From: Candidatus Micrarchaeota archaeon
GTDB lineage: Archaea; Micrarchaeota; Micrarchaeia; Anstonellales; Bilamarchaeaceae
Direction of reading: 5' to 3'
Assembly (NCBI GenBank): GCA_040754495.1
Contig: JBFMCO010000050.1
Span: forward strand, 1 to 31,468
Length of the DNA stretch: 31,468 nt
A program made the position numbers and the translations under genes. The notes beneath the pieces were generated by a model. The model was not told the DNA's origin. It made no database searches and worked only from the letters and a program-made list of their open reading frames with translations. This document shows positions 11,667 to 30,904 of this stretch, in pieces; the first letter of the stretch is position 1; the number at the start of each line of letters is the position of its first letter.

Positions 11667-13310
11667 ATGCCAGAGAAAAAGACAAGGTTCATCGTGATTA
11701 CCGGCTCGATAATGTCCGGGCTCGGCAAGGGAATAGTCTCGTCCTCAATCTCGAAGCTCCTGCAGGCGCGGGGCTTCAAGGTGATGCAGATAAAGTTCGA
11801 CGGCTACCTCAACGTGGACTGCGGCACGATGAACCCGTTCCGCCACGGCGAGGTCTTCGTGCTGGACGACGGCACCGAGGTGGACATGGATTTCGGGACA
11901 TACGAGAGGTTCCTCAACACGTCGCTCCCCGGGACGTGCTCCATAACCGGCGGGAAGCTCTTCCAGAAGATAATCGAGAAGGAGAGGAAGGGCGAGTACC
12001 TCGGGAGGGACGTGCAGTTCGTTCCGCACCTCACGAACGAAATCAAGGCGTGGGTGCAGAAGGTCGGCTCGGAAAATAATGCGGACATCGTCTTAATCGA
12101 GGTCGGGGGGACTGTCGGCGACCTTGAGAACGGCTATTTCATAGAGGCCATGAGGCAGCTCTATTTCGAGCACAACAACATGGCCTTCGTGCAGCTCACC
12201 TACGTCCCTTCGCTGAGCGCCGGCGAGCAGAAGACCAAGCCCACCCAGCATGCGACGAGGCTGCTCCAGAGCCTCGGCATCCAGCCGGACATCATGATAG
12301 CACGCGAGCAGGAGAAGCTCACCGAGGATTCGAAGAAGAAGATAAGCCTGTATTGCAACGTGCCGGAGGATGCGGTCTTCGACGACCCGCTTCTTTCTAC
12401 GGTGTACGAGCTGCCTCTCGTGCTGGAGAAGCAGGGATTCTACCGCGTCCTCGCAAGGAGGCTCGGCCTGCCGGAAGGCAGGGAGGCGGACCTGAAGGAG
12501 TGGCACAGACGCGTTTCCCGCATCGTCTCGCCGAAAGAGAAGCCGCTCCGGATAGCGATTGTCGGCAAATACACCGCGGTGAAGGACGCTTATATAAGCG
12601 TGAGGGAGGCGCTCGTGCACAGCGCGGCCGCCGTGAACTGCCCGCTCGAAATAAGCTGGATAGAGGCGAGCGACCTGGAGAAGGTCTATGACGTCGCGGA
12701 AGTGCTCTCGCCTTACCAGGGAGTGCTCGTCCCGGGCGGGTTCGGCGAGCGCGGCATCGAGGGCAAGATAAAGGCGATTAAGTATGCGAGGGAGAGCAGG
12801 GTGCCCTACCTCGGCCTCTGCCTGGGCGTGCAGCTCATGGTGGTCGAATACGCGCGGAACGTCTGCGGTCTCGCGGGAGCCAATTCGACCGAGTTCGACA
12901 AGAAGACGCCGCACCCCGTGATAGACCTCCTTCCCGAGCAGCAGAAGATAACGAAGCTCGGCGCGACAATGAGGCTCGGGGCCTACGAATGCCTGCTGAA
13001 AAAAGGCACTGCCGCGCACAAGGCCTACGGGAAGGACAAAATCTCCGAGAGGCACAGGCACAGATACGAGGTCAATCCTGCTTATGTTTCCGAGCTGGAG
13101 GGCAAGGGGCTAGTGATATCAGGCAGGCACGAGTCCGGGGTGGTTGAGATAGCGGAGTGGAAGGAATCATTCGGCGTCGCCACCCAGCCGCACATAGAGC
13201 TCAAAAGCAGGCTGGAGGAGCCCGCACCCATTTTCGTAGAGTTCATGAAGGCCGTGATGGAGTACCGCGAGAAGCCGGCGAAATCCGCAGGGGAAGACAT
13301 AGCTGACTGA
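11667..13310 (+). CDS. pyrG: CTP synthase
   Basis: GSIMSGLGKG, DGYLNVD, HGEVFVLDDG, KTKPTQH, GLCLG, ERHRHRYE. Confidence 0.97.
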   Translation: MPEKKTRFIVITGSIMSGLGKGIVSSSISKLLQARGFKVMQIKFDGYLNVDCGTMNPFRHGEVFVLDDGTEVDMDFGTYERFLNTSLPGTCSITGGKLFQKIIEKERKGEYLGRDVQFVPHLTNEIKAWVQKVGSENNADIVLIEVGGTVGDLENGYFIEAMRQLYFEHNNMAFVQLTYVPSLSAGEQKTKPTQHATRLLQSLGIQPDIMIAREQEKLTEDSKKKISLYCNVPEDAVFDDPLLSTVYELPLVLEKQGFYRVLARRLGLPEGREADLKEWHRRVSRIVSPKEKPLRIAIVGKYTAVKDAYISVREALVHSAAAVNCPLEISWIEASDLEKVYDVAEVLSPYQGVLVPGGFGERGIEGKIKAIKYARESRVPYLGLCLGVQLMVVEYARNVCGLAGANSTEFDKKTPHPVIDLLPEQQKITKLGATMRLGAYECLLKKGTAAHKAYGKDKISERHRHRYEVNPAYVSELEGKGLVISGRHESGVVEIAEWKESFGVATQPHIELKSRLEEPAPIFVEFMKAVMEYREKPAKSAGEDIAD

Positions 13311-13355
13311 CCGTGTTCTGGAAACCGGATGCCCGAGACGGGAGACCAGGATAAG

Positions 13356-13397
13356 AAATTGGGCTCTGATTGGCCTTCGGCCAATTCGCCCAAATTT
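13356..13397. terminator. extended hairpin between convergent pyrG and tRNA-Val
   Basis: ATTGGCC-TTC-GGCCAAT inner stem (13369-13385) plus AAATTGGGC/GCCCAAATTT outer stem. Confidence 0.4.
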
Positions 13398-13444
13398 CCA
13401 GCCGGCAAGACCGAAGACTGGAAACTGGAGACCGGAAGCAAAAT

Positions 13445-13706
13445 TGGGCCCGCGCGGAATCGAACCGCGCATCTCCTGCATTTTGTCCTTTTTAGGAAAA
13501 CGCACAAGAACGACGTTTCGTTCTTGGCGCAGCGAGAACGTAACGACGTTCTCGCCGAGGACCAAACTGACTTGCTAATTTTTGCTCTCTGGAGCAAAAA
13601 TGGCTTACACCCAAAACCCGAGAGGGTTTTGCAACAGCCGGTTTTGGTCCCGCTTTTCCTAAAAGCGGGTGTCAAGCAGGCGTCTTAACCGATCGACTAC
13701 GGGCCC
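13445..13706 (-). tRNA. tRNA-Val(GAC) with a 189-nt intron at 37/38 (exon 1 13670-13706, exon 2 13445-13480; CCA not encoded)
   Basis: acceptor GGGCCCG/CGGGCCC with A73; anticodon arm CCTGC-TTGACA|T-GCAGG; T-arm CGCGG-TTCGATT-CCGCG. Confidence 0.92.
13481..13669 (-). mobile_element. MITE-like palindromic element forming the tRNA intron
   Basis: 11-bp subterminal inverted repeats TTTTAGGAAAA/TTTTCCTAAAA (13490-13500, 13654-13664), five internal hairpins, related module at 30735-30773; mobility is inferred. Confidence 0.5.
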
Positions 13707-13768
13707 AGAAGAGTTTCCTGTTTAGGGTTTCCTGTTCTGAACAATAGACACTAAACCCAAAACCGTTT

Positions 13769-14272
13769 TTATACCTTGGCTTCCAGCGCGCTGACGCCAT
13801 GGTGGATGAGCTTCGGGAAATAGGTGAAGCCCTGCTCTATGTGGTCTATGGATTTCGCCTCGCAAAGGCCCTTGAGCAGGCACGCCTGCGGCGATGCCGG
13901 GCTGTGCAGGTTGTTCATGACGACGACCGCGCCGGGGTTGCTTCGCCTGAACTGGGCGAGGCCCTTCTCGAATTCCGCGAACCCGGCAACAAGCTCGCGC
14001 GGGCTCAGGACCACCACGAGGTCCTTCTGAAGCGAGGGAAGGAGCAAAAGGAAGGAGGTCCAGCCGCACATCGTGACCTGCGCGGTCTCCGTGGCATGCC
14101 CCAGCACGCCTGCGACAATCTCCCTCATCTGCACGTAGTCCTTGTCGTCGATGACGATGCAGATGCGCCTGCCGGCAAGCTTGTCCGCAAGGTTCCTGTC
14201 CTCGCTGGGGAAGCGCTCGGCGCGCACTGGCTGCTTGTCTGGGATTAGTCTCGGGGCTGCTGTTGCAATCAT
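13769..14272 (-). CDS. hypothetical protein, possible receiver-like alpha/beta fold
   Basis: RICIVIDD, DLVVV, FRRSNPGAVVVM spacing is reminiscent of REC domains; weak. Confidence 0.5.
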   Translation of the reverse strand: MIATAAPRLIPDKQPVRAERFPSEDRNLADKLAGRRICIVIDDKDYVQMREIVAGVLGHATETAQVTMCGWTSFLLLLPSLQKDLVVVLSPRELVAGFAEFEKGLAQFRRSNPGAVVVMNNLHSPASPQACLLKGLCEAKSIDHIEQGFTYFPKLIHHGVSALEAKV

Positions 14273-28855: not shown

Positions 28856-30451
28856 TCACGGCCTCTTGTAGAGCTCCGAGAGCTTCCTTATCTCACGGAG
28901 CTTCCCGTGCGCGGACTCCAGGCGCGACATGCATTTCACGAACGTGGCCGGGGCGTAGGCCTTCTTCGAGTAGAGGCGCTTGAGGTGCTCCGAGTAGGCC
29001 GAGTTTATCTGCTCGCGCAGGAGGACGTCGTTTTCCCGCATCGCAGCCACGTCCGCGTCTATTATCGAGGGGAAGTTGGCCGAGAGGTGGCCCAGATCAT
29101 CCATGATGCGGAAGTGGACCGCGTCCACGTCGCTGCAGGCGTCGGAAGACATCAGCCTCCCCGAGGTTCTCATGGAGTTGGCTGCGTAGGCCATCGCGAC
29201 GCCGAGGTCCGCTATCTGCTCGAGGGCGTTCGACATGCGCAGGAGGAGGACGTTGCGCGAGACCTCCTTAGGCGAGAGCGCCCGGCCTGAGAGCTCGAGC
29301 AGCGCCTTCTCTATCCTCTCGTCGAGGTAATCGTTCAGGGCTTCGCGTTTGAGAAGGCGGCGGAAAGCCTGGCCGTCCTCTCCGTGCATGACGTCCCTCG
29401 AGCGCTCCATCACCTTTATCGTGTTGGAGAGGAGATGGCGGAGCTCTGCCTCGACCGCTGCGAACGCCTTCGGGTTGTCTTCGGGGAGCCTGTCGTTCAG
29501 GCTCACGGTCTGGAAAAGTATCTCCTCCTCCCTGCCCGGGACGAGCTTCTCGACGAATTTGCTGAACGGCTGGAGGACAATGAGGAATGCCCCCGTGGCT
29601 ATTATGTTCGAAATCGTGTGGGCGTTCGCCGCCTGCTGGGCCGCGCTGCCGCCGAGGGACATGATGAAGGAGACGAACTGCGGAAGGAACGGGAGGATGA
29701 GCAGCACCCCGGCCACGTTATAGAGGAACTGGGCGACGGCGGTCCGCTTCGCGAAAAGCCCGAGCCTGAAGGAGGATATCAGCGGGGTTATGGTGCCGAT
29801 GTTCGAGCCGAGGACCAGCACGATGGCTTCCTGCACGCCGATTATGCCGTTGCCGGCAAGGACGACCACGAGGCCGGTGAAGACGCCGCTGGACTGGAAG
29901 AGGTTGGTGACTATGAATCCTACGAGAAGGGCGGTTGGCACGTCGGAAAGGGTTGAGATGTACGATACCAGGGCCGGGTCGTCGCGAAGCGGGGCCGTGG
30001 CCCCGGCTACCAGCCCCATGCTGTGGTACACGAAACCGAAGAAGAACAGGGGCCTCCCGAGGAAGGCGAACCTCCCCCCGAAGAGGCTGAGCAGGAAGCC
30101 GAGCGGTATGAAAACGATACCCAAGGAGGTGAAATTCAGGGCGACAAGCTGGGCGGTTATCGTGGTGCCAATCCCGGCGCCGAATATTATGGCGAGGCTG
30201 TGGGCGAATGATATGACGCCGGAATCCACGAGGCCGAGGGTTATCACTGCAACAGCCGTGCTGGACTGCACGAGCGCGGTCACGACAGCGCCAAGGAGCG
30301 CCCCGCGCGCCGGGTTTTTCGTCGCGCTCCTGATGAACGAGCGGAACCTCTCGCCCGCGACGCGCTGGATTTCCATGCTGAACTGCTCCATGCCGTAGAG
30401 GAACAGTATCAGGCCGGAGGCGATTGCGAGTATGAGCCCGAACTCAAGCAT
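28856..30451 (-). CDS. Na/Pi cotransporter family protein with PhoU-like C-terminal domains
   Basis: LFLYGM, QSSTA and QSSG repeats, GAGIGTT/GSNIGT, helical C-terminus; start at MLEFG. Confidence 0.92.
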   Translation of the reverse strand: MLEFGLILAIASGLILFLYGMEQFSMEIQRVAGERFRSFIRSATKNPARGALLGAVVTALVQSSTAVAVITLGLVDSGVISFAHSLAIIFGAGIGTTITAQLVALNFTSLGIVFIPLGFLLSLFGGRFAFLGRPLFFFGFVYHSMGLVAGATAPLRDDPALVSYISTLSDVPTALLVGFIVTNLFQSSGVFTGLVVVLAGNGIIGVQEAIVLVLGSNIGTITPLISSFRLGLFAKRTAVAQFLYNVAGVLLILPFLPQFVSFIMSLGGSAAQQAANAHTISNIIATGAFLIVLQPFSKFVEKLVPGREEEILFQTVSLNDRLPEDNPKAFAAVEAELRHLLSNTIKVMERSRDVMHGEDGQAFRRLLKREALNDYLDERIEKALLELSGRALSPKEVSRNVLLLRMSNALEQIADLGVAMAYAANSMRTSGRLMSSDACSDVDAVHFRIMDDLGHLSANFPSIIDADVAAMRENDVLLREQINSAYSEHLKRLYSKKAYAPATFVKCMSRLESAHGKLREIRKLSELYKRP

Positions 30452-30502
30452 GGGAAAATATTCCACCGTCGCGATTAAATATCTCTGCTGGGGATATTTT
30501 GC

Positions 30503-30575
30503 AATGATGACAACGGTGATTGCCTGGCTGCGGCCAGGTCTCACCGTCATCAAAATGATGACAACGGTGATCGCC
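30503..30575 (+). repeat. 22-nt direct repeat with an internal inverted copy
   Basis: AATGATGACAACGGTGATYGCC at 30503 and 30554; TCACCGTCATCA at 30541-30552. Confidence 0.85.
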
Positions 30576-30734
30576 GAGCGAAGCCCTAAGCCACCCGATT
30601 GTTCGGAGTGCCGAACAATGGGCCCCATGAACGGTTCGCCGTTCATGTGGGGTTCCGGATACGTGTCAACGGCCCGGAAACAGGGAGCAATCCCGGCCAC
30701 GGCGTAAGCGATGAAGATTGACGTGCGGTCTGAT

Positions 30735-30773
30735 GCGCCTTTTAGGAAAAGGCGCCCAAAAACGGGTTGTTGC
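30735..30773 (+). repeat. second copy of the tRNA-intron 5' module
   Basis: GCGCC-TTTTAGGAAAA-GGCGC-CCAAAAACGGGTTGTTGC versus intron CCCGC-TTTTAGGAAAA-GCGGG-ACCAAAACCGGCTGTTGC. Confidence 0.75.
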
Positions 30774-30904
30774 GCTCGCCTTCGGCTCGCGTCGTAGGGC
30801 ACGGCTAGTAAGTCGCGAGAAGGAGAAACTGCTGAAAATGTTCCTGGATGCTCCGAGGTTCAGGCAGCCATCAGAAGGAGAGCATCAGCGATAATGACAA
30901 AGAC

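What the first reader, a model, noticed from the sequence alone, without database searches (positions are those of the whole stretch)
13445..13706. tRNA-Val(GAC) interrupted by a 189-nt MITE-like hairpin array
Most archaeal tRNA introns are much shorter. This one contains five perfect 8-10 bp hairpins: CAAGAACGA/TCGTTCTTG, GCGAGAACGT/ACGTTCTCGC, TTTTTGCTC/GAGCAAAAA, CAAAACCC/GGGTTTTG and CCCGCTTTT/AAAAGCGGG. It also has a long-range GGACCAAA/TTTGGTCC pair and 11-bp subterminal inverted repeats that could bring the splice sites together. The BHB is relaxed: U32-U33-G34 pair with CAA, A35 is mismatched, and both bulges are 3 nt. No C/D boxes or ORF were seen. Inference: a non-autonomous palindromic element that parasitises tRNA genes and is made harmless by the host splicing endonuclease.
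Basis: partly seen in the sequence, partly recalled or inferred. Interest (0 to 1): 0.8.

Follow-up and report, generated by a model that had tools for sequence, protein, structure and literature searches.

The report
Repeat-built long intron in tRNA-Val
The only valine tRNA gene found in this tiny archaeon (Micrarchaeota) carries a 189-base, probably spliceable intron assembled from small hairpin repeats that recur in many tRNA genes of its genus, and related genomes show stages from no intron up to this one, which bears on how archaeal tRNA introns arise and grow.

Summary
A tRNA-Val(GAC) gene lies on the minus strand at 13445-13706.

The intron is not one MITE. It is a mosaic of genus-specific modules: two inverted end hairpins with tails, a core shared with Ile, Ala and Thr tRNA introns, and a nested 58-nt two-hairpin insert. 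Alleles of this same intron without that insert occur in three public metagenomes.

Orthologous Val(GAC) genes in the genus have no intron, a D-loop intron, or 37/38 introns of 30-101 nt. So the intron is neither ancient nor fixed.

The genome encodes an epsilon2-type (ARMAN-2-like) splicing endonuclease with broad specificity, and RtcB ligase. The BHB is relaxed but energetically accessible.

I found no target-site duplication, matching transposase, reverse transcriptase or viral copy. No RNA data exist, so splicing is inferred.

This scan had already found the same intron family on other contigs of this genome. New here are the ortholog series, the empty-site alleles and the consistent insertion point.

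Closest known: transposed tRNA introns of Thermoproteales.

The parts
13445..13706 (-). tRNA-Val(GAC) gene including its intron
   Evidence: The spliced form is called tRNA-Val(gac), 73 nt. It is the only Val tRNA found in the assembly, which is 80% complete.
13670..13706 (-). Exon 1 (positions 1-37, anticodon GAC)
   Evidence: It is 97% identical to exon 1 of the intron-less ortholog in G022.
13481..13669 (-). 189-nt intron at the canonical 37/38 position
   Evidence: Orthologs place introns of 0-101 nt at the same site.
13445..13480 (-). Exon 2 (positions 38-73, no encoded CCA), followed by a T-run at 13440-13444
13649..13669 (-). End module A: 9-bp hairpin (GC stem, T-run, 3-nt loop, A-run) starting at the first intron base
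   Evidence: The genome has 36 perfect hairpins of this design against 0-1 in shuffles.
13643..13650 (-). Tail P of module A; pairs with P' at 13559-13566
   Evidence: In the MFE this pair closes the central domain.
13578..13631 (-). Core with hairpin C (13612-13631) and hairpin D (13578-13601)
   Evidence: The core is 80-84% identical over 80-110 nt to introns of tRNA-Ile(GAU) on C9, tRNA-Ala(CGC) on C4 and tRNA-Thr(CGU) on C59.
13559..13566 (-). P' tail, which overlaps the 5' arm (13559-13562) of the split end hairpin B
13501..13558 (-). Nested 58-nt insert with two related hairpins (E1 at 13532-13555, E2 at 13505-13526) inside the 5' arm of hairpin B
   Evidence: Contigs from three metagenome studies that are about 95% like the gene skip 13501-13563, with 6-12 extra bases carried at or beside the joint. 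That is equivalent to lacking the 58-nt module at 13501-13558 mapped. The same module is 93-95% identical inside tRNA-Cys (G029) and tRNA-Asp (G018) introns, and shows a clean 58-nt indel.
13485..13500 (-). Loop and 3' arm of end hairpin B; also the 3' partner of the 11-bp subterminal inverted repeat with module A
   Evidence: With the insert removed, B is an intact 8-bp hairpin.
13481..13486 (-). Host-specific 3' tail: supplies the strand that pairs with U32-G34 and two bases of the 3' bulge
   Evidence: In the orthologs I checked by eye, the last intron bases are complementary to positions 32-35.
13766..13773 (-). Candidate archaeal TATA box 60-67 nt upstream of the tRNA 5' end
   Evidence: Read from the sequence only. 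This is an inference and was not tested.
30735..30773 (+). A second copy of end module A plus tail in this window, outside any tRNA gene
   Evidence: It lies in the N-terminal extension of a Na/Pi-cotransporter ORF, upstream of the Pfam domain.

Best explanation
This is the working tRNA-Val(GAC) gene of a Micrarchaeota archaeon. It is interrupted at the canonical 37/38 site by an enzyme-spliced (BHB-type) intron that has grown to 189 nt by accumulating small palindromic DNA modules specific to this genus.

Anatomy:
- Two end modules are inverted copies of each other. Each is a GC stem plus T-run/A-run hairpin with a short tail.
- A two-hairpin core is shared with several other tRNA introns.
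- A 58-nt two-hairpin module is nested in the 5' arm of the 3' end hairpin.

Proposed mechanism (inferred):
1. In the transcript, the inverted ends and tails pair, so the intron folds into a compact multi-hairpin domain.
2. This brings the two splice sites together.
3. A few host-specific bases at the 3' end pair with anticodon-loop positions 32-34 and form a relaxed bulge-helix-bulge.
4. The genome's epsilon2-type endonuclease cuts, and RtcB joins the exons.

Shown here: the gene, the modules, their recurrence, the presence/absence states among orthologs, the empty-site alleles, and the enzymes. Inferred: splicing itself, and that the modules spread as DNA by an unidentified, site-preferring insertion or copying process.
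For: Gene integrity:
- The joined exons give a canonical tRNA-Val(gac).
- The exons are 97% identical to those of the intron-less ortholog in G022. The only two differences form a compensatory acceptor pair, 7:66.
- No other Val tRNA was found in the assembly.

Fold and BHB:
- Fold z = -8.8.
- The BHB-forming structure is only 1.8 kcal/mol above the MFE.

Splicing enzymes:
- A 391-aa EndA matches ARMAN-2 EndA (4FZ2) at E = 1e-132. The loop lysine and the catalytic Tyr/His/Lys named in PMC3488258 are conserved in the alignment.
- RtcB is present.
- The epsilon2 enzyme cleaves strict and relaxed BHBs in vitro (PMC3239211).

Family:
- The genome has 36 perfect end hairpins against 0-1 in shuffles. 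Of these, 22 lie in 16 tRNA genes.
- The core is 80-84% identical to the Ile, Ala and Thr introns.
- Module matches occur across the genus. Order-level relatives matched exons only.

Turnover at this gene:
- Orthologs, many of them syntenic with metK, are intron-less (7 genomes), carry a D-loop intron only, carry 37/38 introns of 30, 41, 49, 56, 77 or 101 nt, or carry both.
- On a metK tree the nearest relatives have D-loop-only or intron-less genes.

Nested insert:
- Empty-site alleles of this very intron occur in three metagenome studies.
- A clean 58-nt indel separates otherwise identical tRNA-Asp introns of G000 and G018.
- All four host hairpins carry the insert at the same point, between the GC stem and the T-run.

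DNA-level presence: one module copy lies in frame inside pyrF.
Against: - No RNA data exist, so neither splicing nor circularisation has been observed.
- The central BHB helix has only 3 pairs plus an A.A mismatch, and its pair probability in the free ensemble is about 0.04.
- The intron carries sense-strand T4-T5 runs, which could act as archaeal terminators.
- The mode of spread is unknown. I found no target-site duplication, no Y1 transposase or reverse transcriptase (assembly 80% complete), and no viral copies by exact pattern.
- The insert is 93-95% identical between species whose metK DNA is 72% identical. This fits recent movement, but it also fits selection on the module.
- The metK tree is a single gene with moderate support.
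Confidence: 0.78

Rival explanations
1. Classical MITE. The whole 189-nt insert is one non-autonomous DNA transposon with terminal inverted repeats, moved in trans by a transposase, and it happens to be tolerated in tRNA genes because it is spliced out.
For: - The ends are inverted repeats (19 of 22 positions).
- It is small and non-coding.
- Many copies exist, and a few lie outside tRNA genes, including one in frame in pyrF.
- Four TnpB-like genes are present in the genome.
Against: - No two introns share the whole unit. Ends, core and insert recombine independently, and the A and B stems usually differ within one intron.
- No target-site duplication is seen at the exon junctions.
- No Y1 transposase was found, and BLAST of the intron gave no hit near the TnpB-like loci.
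- 22 of 36 perfect hairpins lie in tRNA spans, which make up about 0.3% of the genome.
Confidence: 0.12
2. RNA-level spread. Excised (circular) introns re-enter other pre-tRNAs at BHB-like sites by reversal of the endonuclease/ligase reaction. They are then fixed in DNA by reverse transcription and recombination.
For: - There is a strong bias to tRNA introns and to positions that can form BHBs.
- All four nested inserts have the same orientation relative to the tRNA sense strand.
- The sense strand folds more stably than the antisense in 15 of 19 family introns (p = 0.014; the introns are related to each other, so this is weak evidence).
Against: - No reverse transcriptase was found.
- Module copies exist in a protein-coding gene and in spacers, where EndA chemistry is not expected.
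- No precedent for this route was found in the papers read.
Confidence: 0.08
3. Functional intron RNA. The conserved core and hairpins make a stable (possibly circular) non-coding RNA with its own role, as with the C/D-box guide RNA in the haloarchaeal tRNA-Trp intron.
For: - Very strong fold (z = -8.8).
- The core is conserved across several tRNA introns and genomes.
- Hairpin D keeps its pairing through changes on both arms between alleles.
- The tRNA-Asp intron is identical in two species.
Against: - No Rfam family matched, even at E <= 10, and there are no C/D boxes.
- The intron is absent or completely different in orthologous Val genes of close relatives, so no function is tied to this locus.
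- Palindromic DNA repeats keep stems paired without any RNA function.
Confidence: 0.08
4. Disabled gene. The long insert, weak BHB and internal T-runs prevent production of mature tRNA. The gene is a decaying pseudogene backed up by a copy in the unassembled part of the genome.
For: - The central BHB helix is weak.
- The intron has T4-T5 runs.
- The assembly is only 80% complete.
Against: - The exons are intact, and their only differences from the G022 ortholog form a compensatory pair.
- The same intron-bearing gene persists at about 95% identity in three other metagenomes.
- Most tRNA genes of this genome carry similar introns, so they cannot all be dead.
- No second Val gene was found.
Confidence: 0.04

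Closest known systems
Transposed tRNA-intron families of Thermoproteales (Sugahara 2008; Fujishima 2010, as summarised in PMC4090602, PMC4033280 and preprint 10.64898/2026.10.13.758758)
   Same: - Related intron sequences recur in tRNA genes of different isotypes, at both canonical and non-canonical positions.
- Splicing depends on a BHB and on an endonuclease with broad specificity.
- Presence differs between close relatives.
- The route of arrival is unknown.
   Different: - A different phylum (Micrarchaeota) and a different enzyme type (epsilon2, not alpha2beta2).
- The introns here are much longer: about 50-210 nt by ARAGORN's estimate, and 189 nt here.
- They are modular, with inverted end hairpins, a shared core and nested inserts.
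- Empty and filled sites are directly visible.
- Module copies also occur outside tRNA genes.
MITEs and other small palindromic repeats (REP/RAYT and IS200/IS605-derived elements; Rickettsia palindromic elements). Named from general knowledge.
   Same: - Short, non-coding and hairpin-forming, with inverted ends and many copies.
- Occasionally inserted in frame in a protein-coding gene (pyrF).
- Nested insertions occur.
   Different: - No target-site duplication and no partner transposase were found.
- The units are only about 30-60 nt and combine as a mosaic.
- They are overwhelmingly located in tRNA introns.
ARMAN-2 (Ca. Micrarchaeum acidiphilum) disrupted tRNA genes and epsilon2 EndA (PMC3239211, PMC3488258, PMC12397907)
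   Same: - Same phylum and the same three-unit endonuclease (E = 1e-132 to 4FZ2), with the key lysine conserved.
- A high share of interrupted tRNA genes.
   Different: The ARMAN-2 introns tested in that paper's splicing assay were 13 and 25 nt. No repeat-built long intron family was found described in the papers searched.
Long functional tRNA intron: haloarchaeal tRNA-Trp intron carrying a C/D-box guide RNA (general knowledge)
   Same: A long (about 100 nt), structured intron at the canonical site.
   Different: There are no C/D boxes and no Rfam match here, and the intron is not conserved among orthologs.

Membership tests
Archaeal enzyme-spliced (BHB) tRNA intron | Removing the insert restores a canonical tRNA | tested here: met
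   The joined exons give a 73-nt tRNA-Val(gac) cloverleaf. They are 97% identical to the intron-less ortholog in G022.
Archaeal enzyme-spliced (BHB) tRNA intron | Bulge-helix-bulge at the exon-intron junctions (3-nt bulges separated by a 4-bp helix) | tested here: inconclusive
   Both 3-nt bulges are possible, but the helix has 3 pairs plus an A.A mismatch. The structure lies 1.8 kcal/mol above the MFE, and pair probability is about 0.04. This is a relaxed motif.
Archaeal enzyme-spliced (BHB) tRNA intron | Splicing endonuclease and RNA ligase encoded in the genome | tested here: met
   An epsilon2-type EndA with catalytic residues and the loop lysine conserved. RtcB at E = 8.6e-166.
Archaeal enzyme-spliced (BHB) tRNA intron | Spliced tRNA and excised intron observed | not testable with these tools
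   No RNA run holds the locus.
Transposed/mobile tRNA-intron family (Thermoproteales type) | Similar intron sequence in tRNA genes of different isotypes within one genome | tested here: met
   Modules are shared with the Ile, Ala, Thr, Leu, Lys, Pro, Asp and other genes.
Transposed/mobile tRNA-intron family (Thermoproteales type) | [quoted passage not shown] | tested here: met
   Val(GAC) orthologs carry the end module in the D-loop, at 37/38, at both, or at neither.
MITE | Terminal inverted repeats | tested here: met
   19 of 22 positions match once the nested insert is removed. The 11-bp perfect core is confirmed.
MITE | Target-site duplication flanking the element | tested here: not met
   No direct repeat is seen at the exon-intron junctions or at the 58-nt insert. 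The junction is ambiguous by only one T.
MITE | Autonomous partner with matching ends (a transposase in the genome) | tested here: not met
   No Y1 transposase was found. Four TnpB-like genes are present, but BLAST of the intron gave no hit near them. The assembly is 80% complete.
MITE | The whole element is repeated as a unit at unrelated sites | tested here: not met
   Only sub-modules recur. No second full-length copy exists in the genome or in the genus.
C/D-box sRNA-bearing intron | C and D boxes | tested here: not met
   No C box and no sense-strand D box. No Rfam match.

The most novel reading that the evidence does not exclude
The hairpin modules may be a currently active, site-preferring insertion system with no recognisable transposase, one that both creates and enlarges archaeal tRNA introns. 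Because the inserted units carry inverted ends, each new insert would supply the helix that brings the splice sites together, so it would be spliceable from the start. If so, this genus would give the first step-by-step view of archaeal tRNA-intron birth and growth, with empty site, short intron, long intron and nested intron all visible at one gene.
Probability: 0.3. Interest if true: 0.8.

Novelty: new variant of a known kind. Interest (0 to 1): 0.6.

Why it matters
How intron DNA enters archaeal tRNA genes is still an open question (stated in preprint 10.64898/2026.10.13.758758 and in PMC4090602). At this one orthologous gene, close relatives show a full range of states:
- intron-less;
- a D-loop intron;
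- 37/38 introns from 30 to 189 nt built from the same parts;
- a 58-nt sub-module with both filled and empty sites, and a consistent insertion point.

That turns an abstract question into a testable one: which enzyme inserts these hairpins, and do inverted ends make an insert spliceable?

There is also a practical point. Standard tRNA finders miss nearly all tRNA genes of such genomes, so tRNA counts for these MAGs will be too low.

Tried and rejected
- RNA evidence: no RNA holder was listed for the locus. The four runs laid were DNA contigs only.
- Rfam: nothing at gathering score. At E <= 10 there were only chance hits and a partial tRNA hit.
- Tandem Repeats Finder on 13150-13850: no array.
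- Bacterial-type promoter scan: uninformative for an archaeon.
- Y1 transposase and reverse transcriptase: not found in the 80%-complete assembly.
- TnpB-like genes: present, but BLAST of the intron gave no hit near them.
- Exact end-module and insert patterns: not found in viral contigs.
- A second Val(GAC) gene: ARAGORN's call on C70 is, by my reading of the sequence, a Ser-type gene with a misplaced intron. BLAST finds no other Val gene.
- Sense versus antisense folding test for RNA-level selection: only a weak signal, and the data points are related to each other.
- metK tree: too poorly resolved outside one clade to count gains and losses.
- Full-length copies of the 189-nt intron elsewhere: none found.

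Full report
WHAT IS THERE. On the minus strand, 13706-13445 reads as a tRNA gene:
- Exon 1 is 13706-13670: acceptor, D arm, 5' anticodon stem, and the loop up to A37, with anticodon GAC.
- The insert is 189 nt, at 13669-13481.
- Exon 2 is 13480-13445: U38, 3' anticodon stem, 5-nt variable loop, T arm, acceptor and A73. No CCA is encoded, and a T-run follows.

Joining the exons gives a 73-nt sequence that ARAGORN calls tRNA-Val(gac) and that RNAfold folds as a cloverleaf. Default ARAGORN and Rfam at gathering score miss the gene.

The precursor folds far better than shuffles (z = -8.8). The intron has no C/D boxes and no sense ATG, and the overlapping mechanical ORFs have no Pfam match.

ORGANISM AND SPLICING MACHINERY. 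The neighbours are CTP synthase and archaeal S-adenosylmethionine synthetase, metK. The metK protein is 80% identical to proteins of 'Candidatus Micrarchaeota archaeon' MAGs.

The assembly has 72 contigs, 1.63 Mb and 59.5% GC, and is 80% complete.

It encodes a 391-aa endonuclease that matches the ARMAN-2 epsilon2 EndA structure 4FZ2 over its full length (E = 1e-132). The alignment conserves the loop lysine and the catalytic Tyr/His/Lys that PMC3488258 identified. RtcB is also present. The epsilon2 enzyme cleaves strict and relaxed BHB motifs in vitro (PMC3239211).

THE SPLICE SITES. With the canonical geometry:
- U32, U33 and G34 pair with three bases near the intron's 3' end.
- A35 faces an A.
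- The bulges are C36-A37-C and A-A-U38.
- Two C-G pairs and the 11-bp end-to-end helix follow.

Enforcing the three central pairs costs 1.8 kcal/mol, but in the free ensemble they are rarely formed (probability about 0.04). This is a relaxed BHB. Splicing is plausible but was not observed.

In the orthologs I checked by eye, the last intron bases are likewise complementary to positions 32-35 (sequences). The extreme 3' end of each intron therefore looks host-specific.

THE INTRON BELONGS TO A GENOME-WIDE FAMILY. ARAGORN with introns allowed finds 29 tRNA calls in the genome, two of which look false. About 20 of them carry introns of 32-213 nt.

BLAST of the Val intron hits other tRNA introns:
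- The core is 80-84% identical over 80-110 nt to introns of tRNA-Ile(GAU) on C9, tRNA-Ala(CGC) on C4 and tRNA-Thr(CGU) on C59.
- The end module recurs in many more introns.

A structural search for the end hairpin (5-bp stem, T-run, short loop, A-run, complementary stem) finds 36 perfect copies against 0-1 in shuffles. Of these, 22 lie in 16 tRNA genes. Nearly all have the same short tail on one side.

The 3' end module is the reverse complement of the 5' one, so the introns have inverted ends. For the Val intron the match is 19 of 22 positions once the nested insert is removed.

A few copies lie outside tRNA genes. One is in frame inside pyrF. Another is in this window at 30735-30773.

Across 60 relatives, intron modules matched throughout the genus. 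The order-level genomes matched only the exons.

THE SAME GENE IN RELATIVES. Val(GAC) genes were collected from the genus, from named Micrarchaeota MAGs and from metagenome contigs. Many lie next to metK, as here, which supports orthology. The states are:
- Intron-less: 7 genus genomes, plus several metagenome contigs.
- A 42-59 nt D-loop intron only, made of the same end module.
- 37/38 introns of 30, 41, 46-49, 55-57, 77-79 and 99-101 nt.
- Both positions occupied.
- The 189-nt form, found only in this genome.

The family-type 37/38 introns form an architectural series:
- 30 nt: end hairpin alone.
- 56 nt: end hairpin plus tail.
- 77 nt: both end modules.
- 101 nt: both end modules plus hairpin C.
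- 189 nt: hairpin D and the nested insert as well.

On a metK tree (single gene, moderate support), this genome is sister to two genomes with a D-loop intron only. The next clade out is intron-less. The intron is therefore neither ancient nor fixed.

THE NESTED 58-NT INSERT. Window 13501-13558 holds two related hairpins (E1 and E2). They sit between the GC stem and the T-run of the 3' end hairpin. Four lines of evidence mark this as a discrete insertion:
- DNA contigs from three metagenome studies match the gene and intron at about 95% but skip 13501-13563, with 6-12 extra bases carried at or beside the joint. That is equivalent to lacking the 58-nt module at 13501-13558, and it leaves an intact end hairpin.
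- The same module is 93-95% identical inside the 5' end hairpin of a tRNA-Cys(GCA) intron in G029 and of a tRNA-Asp(GUC) intron in G018. metK DNA is only 72% identical between this genome and G018.
- The tRNA-Asp introns of this genome and G018 are identical except for a clean 58-nt indel at that point (alignment A1).
- A diverged copy sits at the same point of the 3' end hairpin of the tRNA-Leu(CAG) intron in this genome.

All four copies have the same orientation relative to the tRNA. With so few and possibly related cases, that is not significant.

HOW IT PROBABLY WORKS AND SPREADS. These parts are shown: the gene is intact, it is the only Val tRNA found, its intron is a mosaic of repeated modules, and the enzymes are present.

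These parts are inferred: the transcript folds so that the inverted ends pair and present a relaxed BHB to the epsilon2 endonuclease, and RtcB then ligates the exons. The excised intron may become a circle.

For spread, a DNA-level process fits best, because copies occur in a coding gene and in spacers. But I found no target-site duplication, no Y1 transposase, no reverse transcriptase and no viral copies. Sense strands fold somewhat better than antisense strands (15 of 19). This hints that RNA pairing is under selection, but the evidence is weak.

COMPARISON AND NOVELTY. The closest described phenomenon is intron transposition in Thermoproteales (summarised in PMC4090602 and PMC4033280, and used as a positive control in preprint 10.64898/2026.10.13.758758).

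This case shares recurrence across isotypes and positions. It differs in five ways:
- the phylum;
- the enzyme type;
- intron length;
- the modular palindromic build;
- visible nested insertions with empty sites.

Full-text searches found no paper describing such introns in Micrarchaeota or DPANN. It fails the MITE tests for target-site duplication, partner transposase and whole-unit repetition, so 'MITE-like' is an analogy and not a classification.

Earlier agents of this scan described the same family on other contigs of this genome. I re-derived the family independently. New here are the Val ortholog series, the metagenomic empty-site alleles, and the common insertion point of the 58-nt module.

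Noticed in passing
window 30735-30773 (+): A free copy of the intron end module (hairpin plus tail) lies outside any tRNA gene. It sits in the first ~25 codons of a long Na/Pi-cotransporter ORF (28856-30802, minus strand), well upstream of where the Pfam domain starts. It may therefore lie in a leader or spacer.
   Followed up: partly
window 30500-30579 (+): A weak match to the archaeal C/D-box sRNA family sR44 (23.8 bits, E = 0.0038, below the gathering score). The stretch contains a C-box-like motif, so it may be an unannotated guide RNA.
   Followed up: no
window 13300-13444 and 13707-13745; also G000 C31:48520-48679, C14:25165-25407, C22:56228-56398, C4:14170-14240: Short GGAAAC/GGTTTCC-type motifs flank the tRNA-Val gene. 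They also make up a second kind of intron, forming long imperfect hairpins, in other tRNA genes. Tandem Repeats Finder reports no array in the window stretch.
   Followed up: partly
G000 C46:1648-1797 versus L007:1424-1649: The anticodon-loop intron of tRNA-Asp(GUC) is 100% identical between two species whose metK DNA is 72% identical, apart from the 58-nt indel. The D-loop introns of the same two genes are unrelated. The identity is unexplained; it could reflect selection, gene conversion or recent transfer.
   Followed up: partly
G000 C61:190-345: A 17-nt direct repeat flanks a ~120-nt segment that ends in an intron end module. The site is apparently intergenic. This may be a duplication made at insertion.
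   Followed up: no
G000 C14:17199-17219 (L115:1000-1020): An end-module hairpin lies in frame inside the OMP decarboxylase (pyrF) ORF, within the Pfam domain span.
   Followed up: partly
G000 C66:800-979 and C66:1722-1919: A TnpB-like ORF lies about 0.7 kb from a tRNA gene that carries a family intron. BLAST of the intron gave no hit at the TnpB locus.
   Followed up: partly
L124:76-96 region versus L132: In metagenome contigs, a 99-nt Val(GAC) intron looks like the 48-nt type with a further hairpin block inserted inside it. This appears to be another case of nested growth.
   Followed up: no
whole genome G000: Default ARAGORN finds no tRNA in this window, and Rfam's tRNA model reaches its cut-off at only 14 places in the whole genome. 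Standard annotation will badly undercount tRNA genes in these MAGs.
   Followed up: partly
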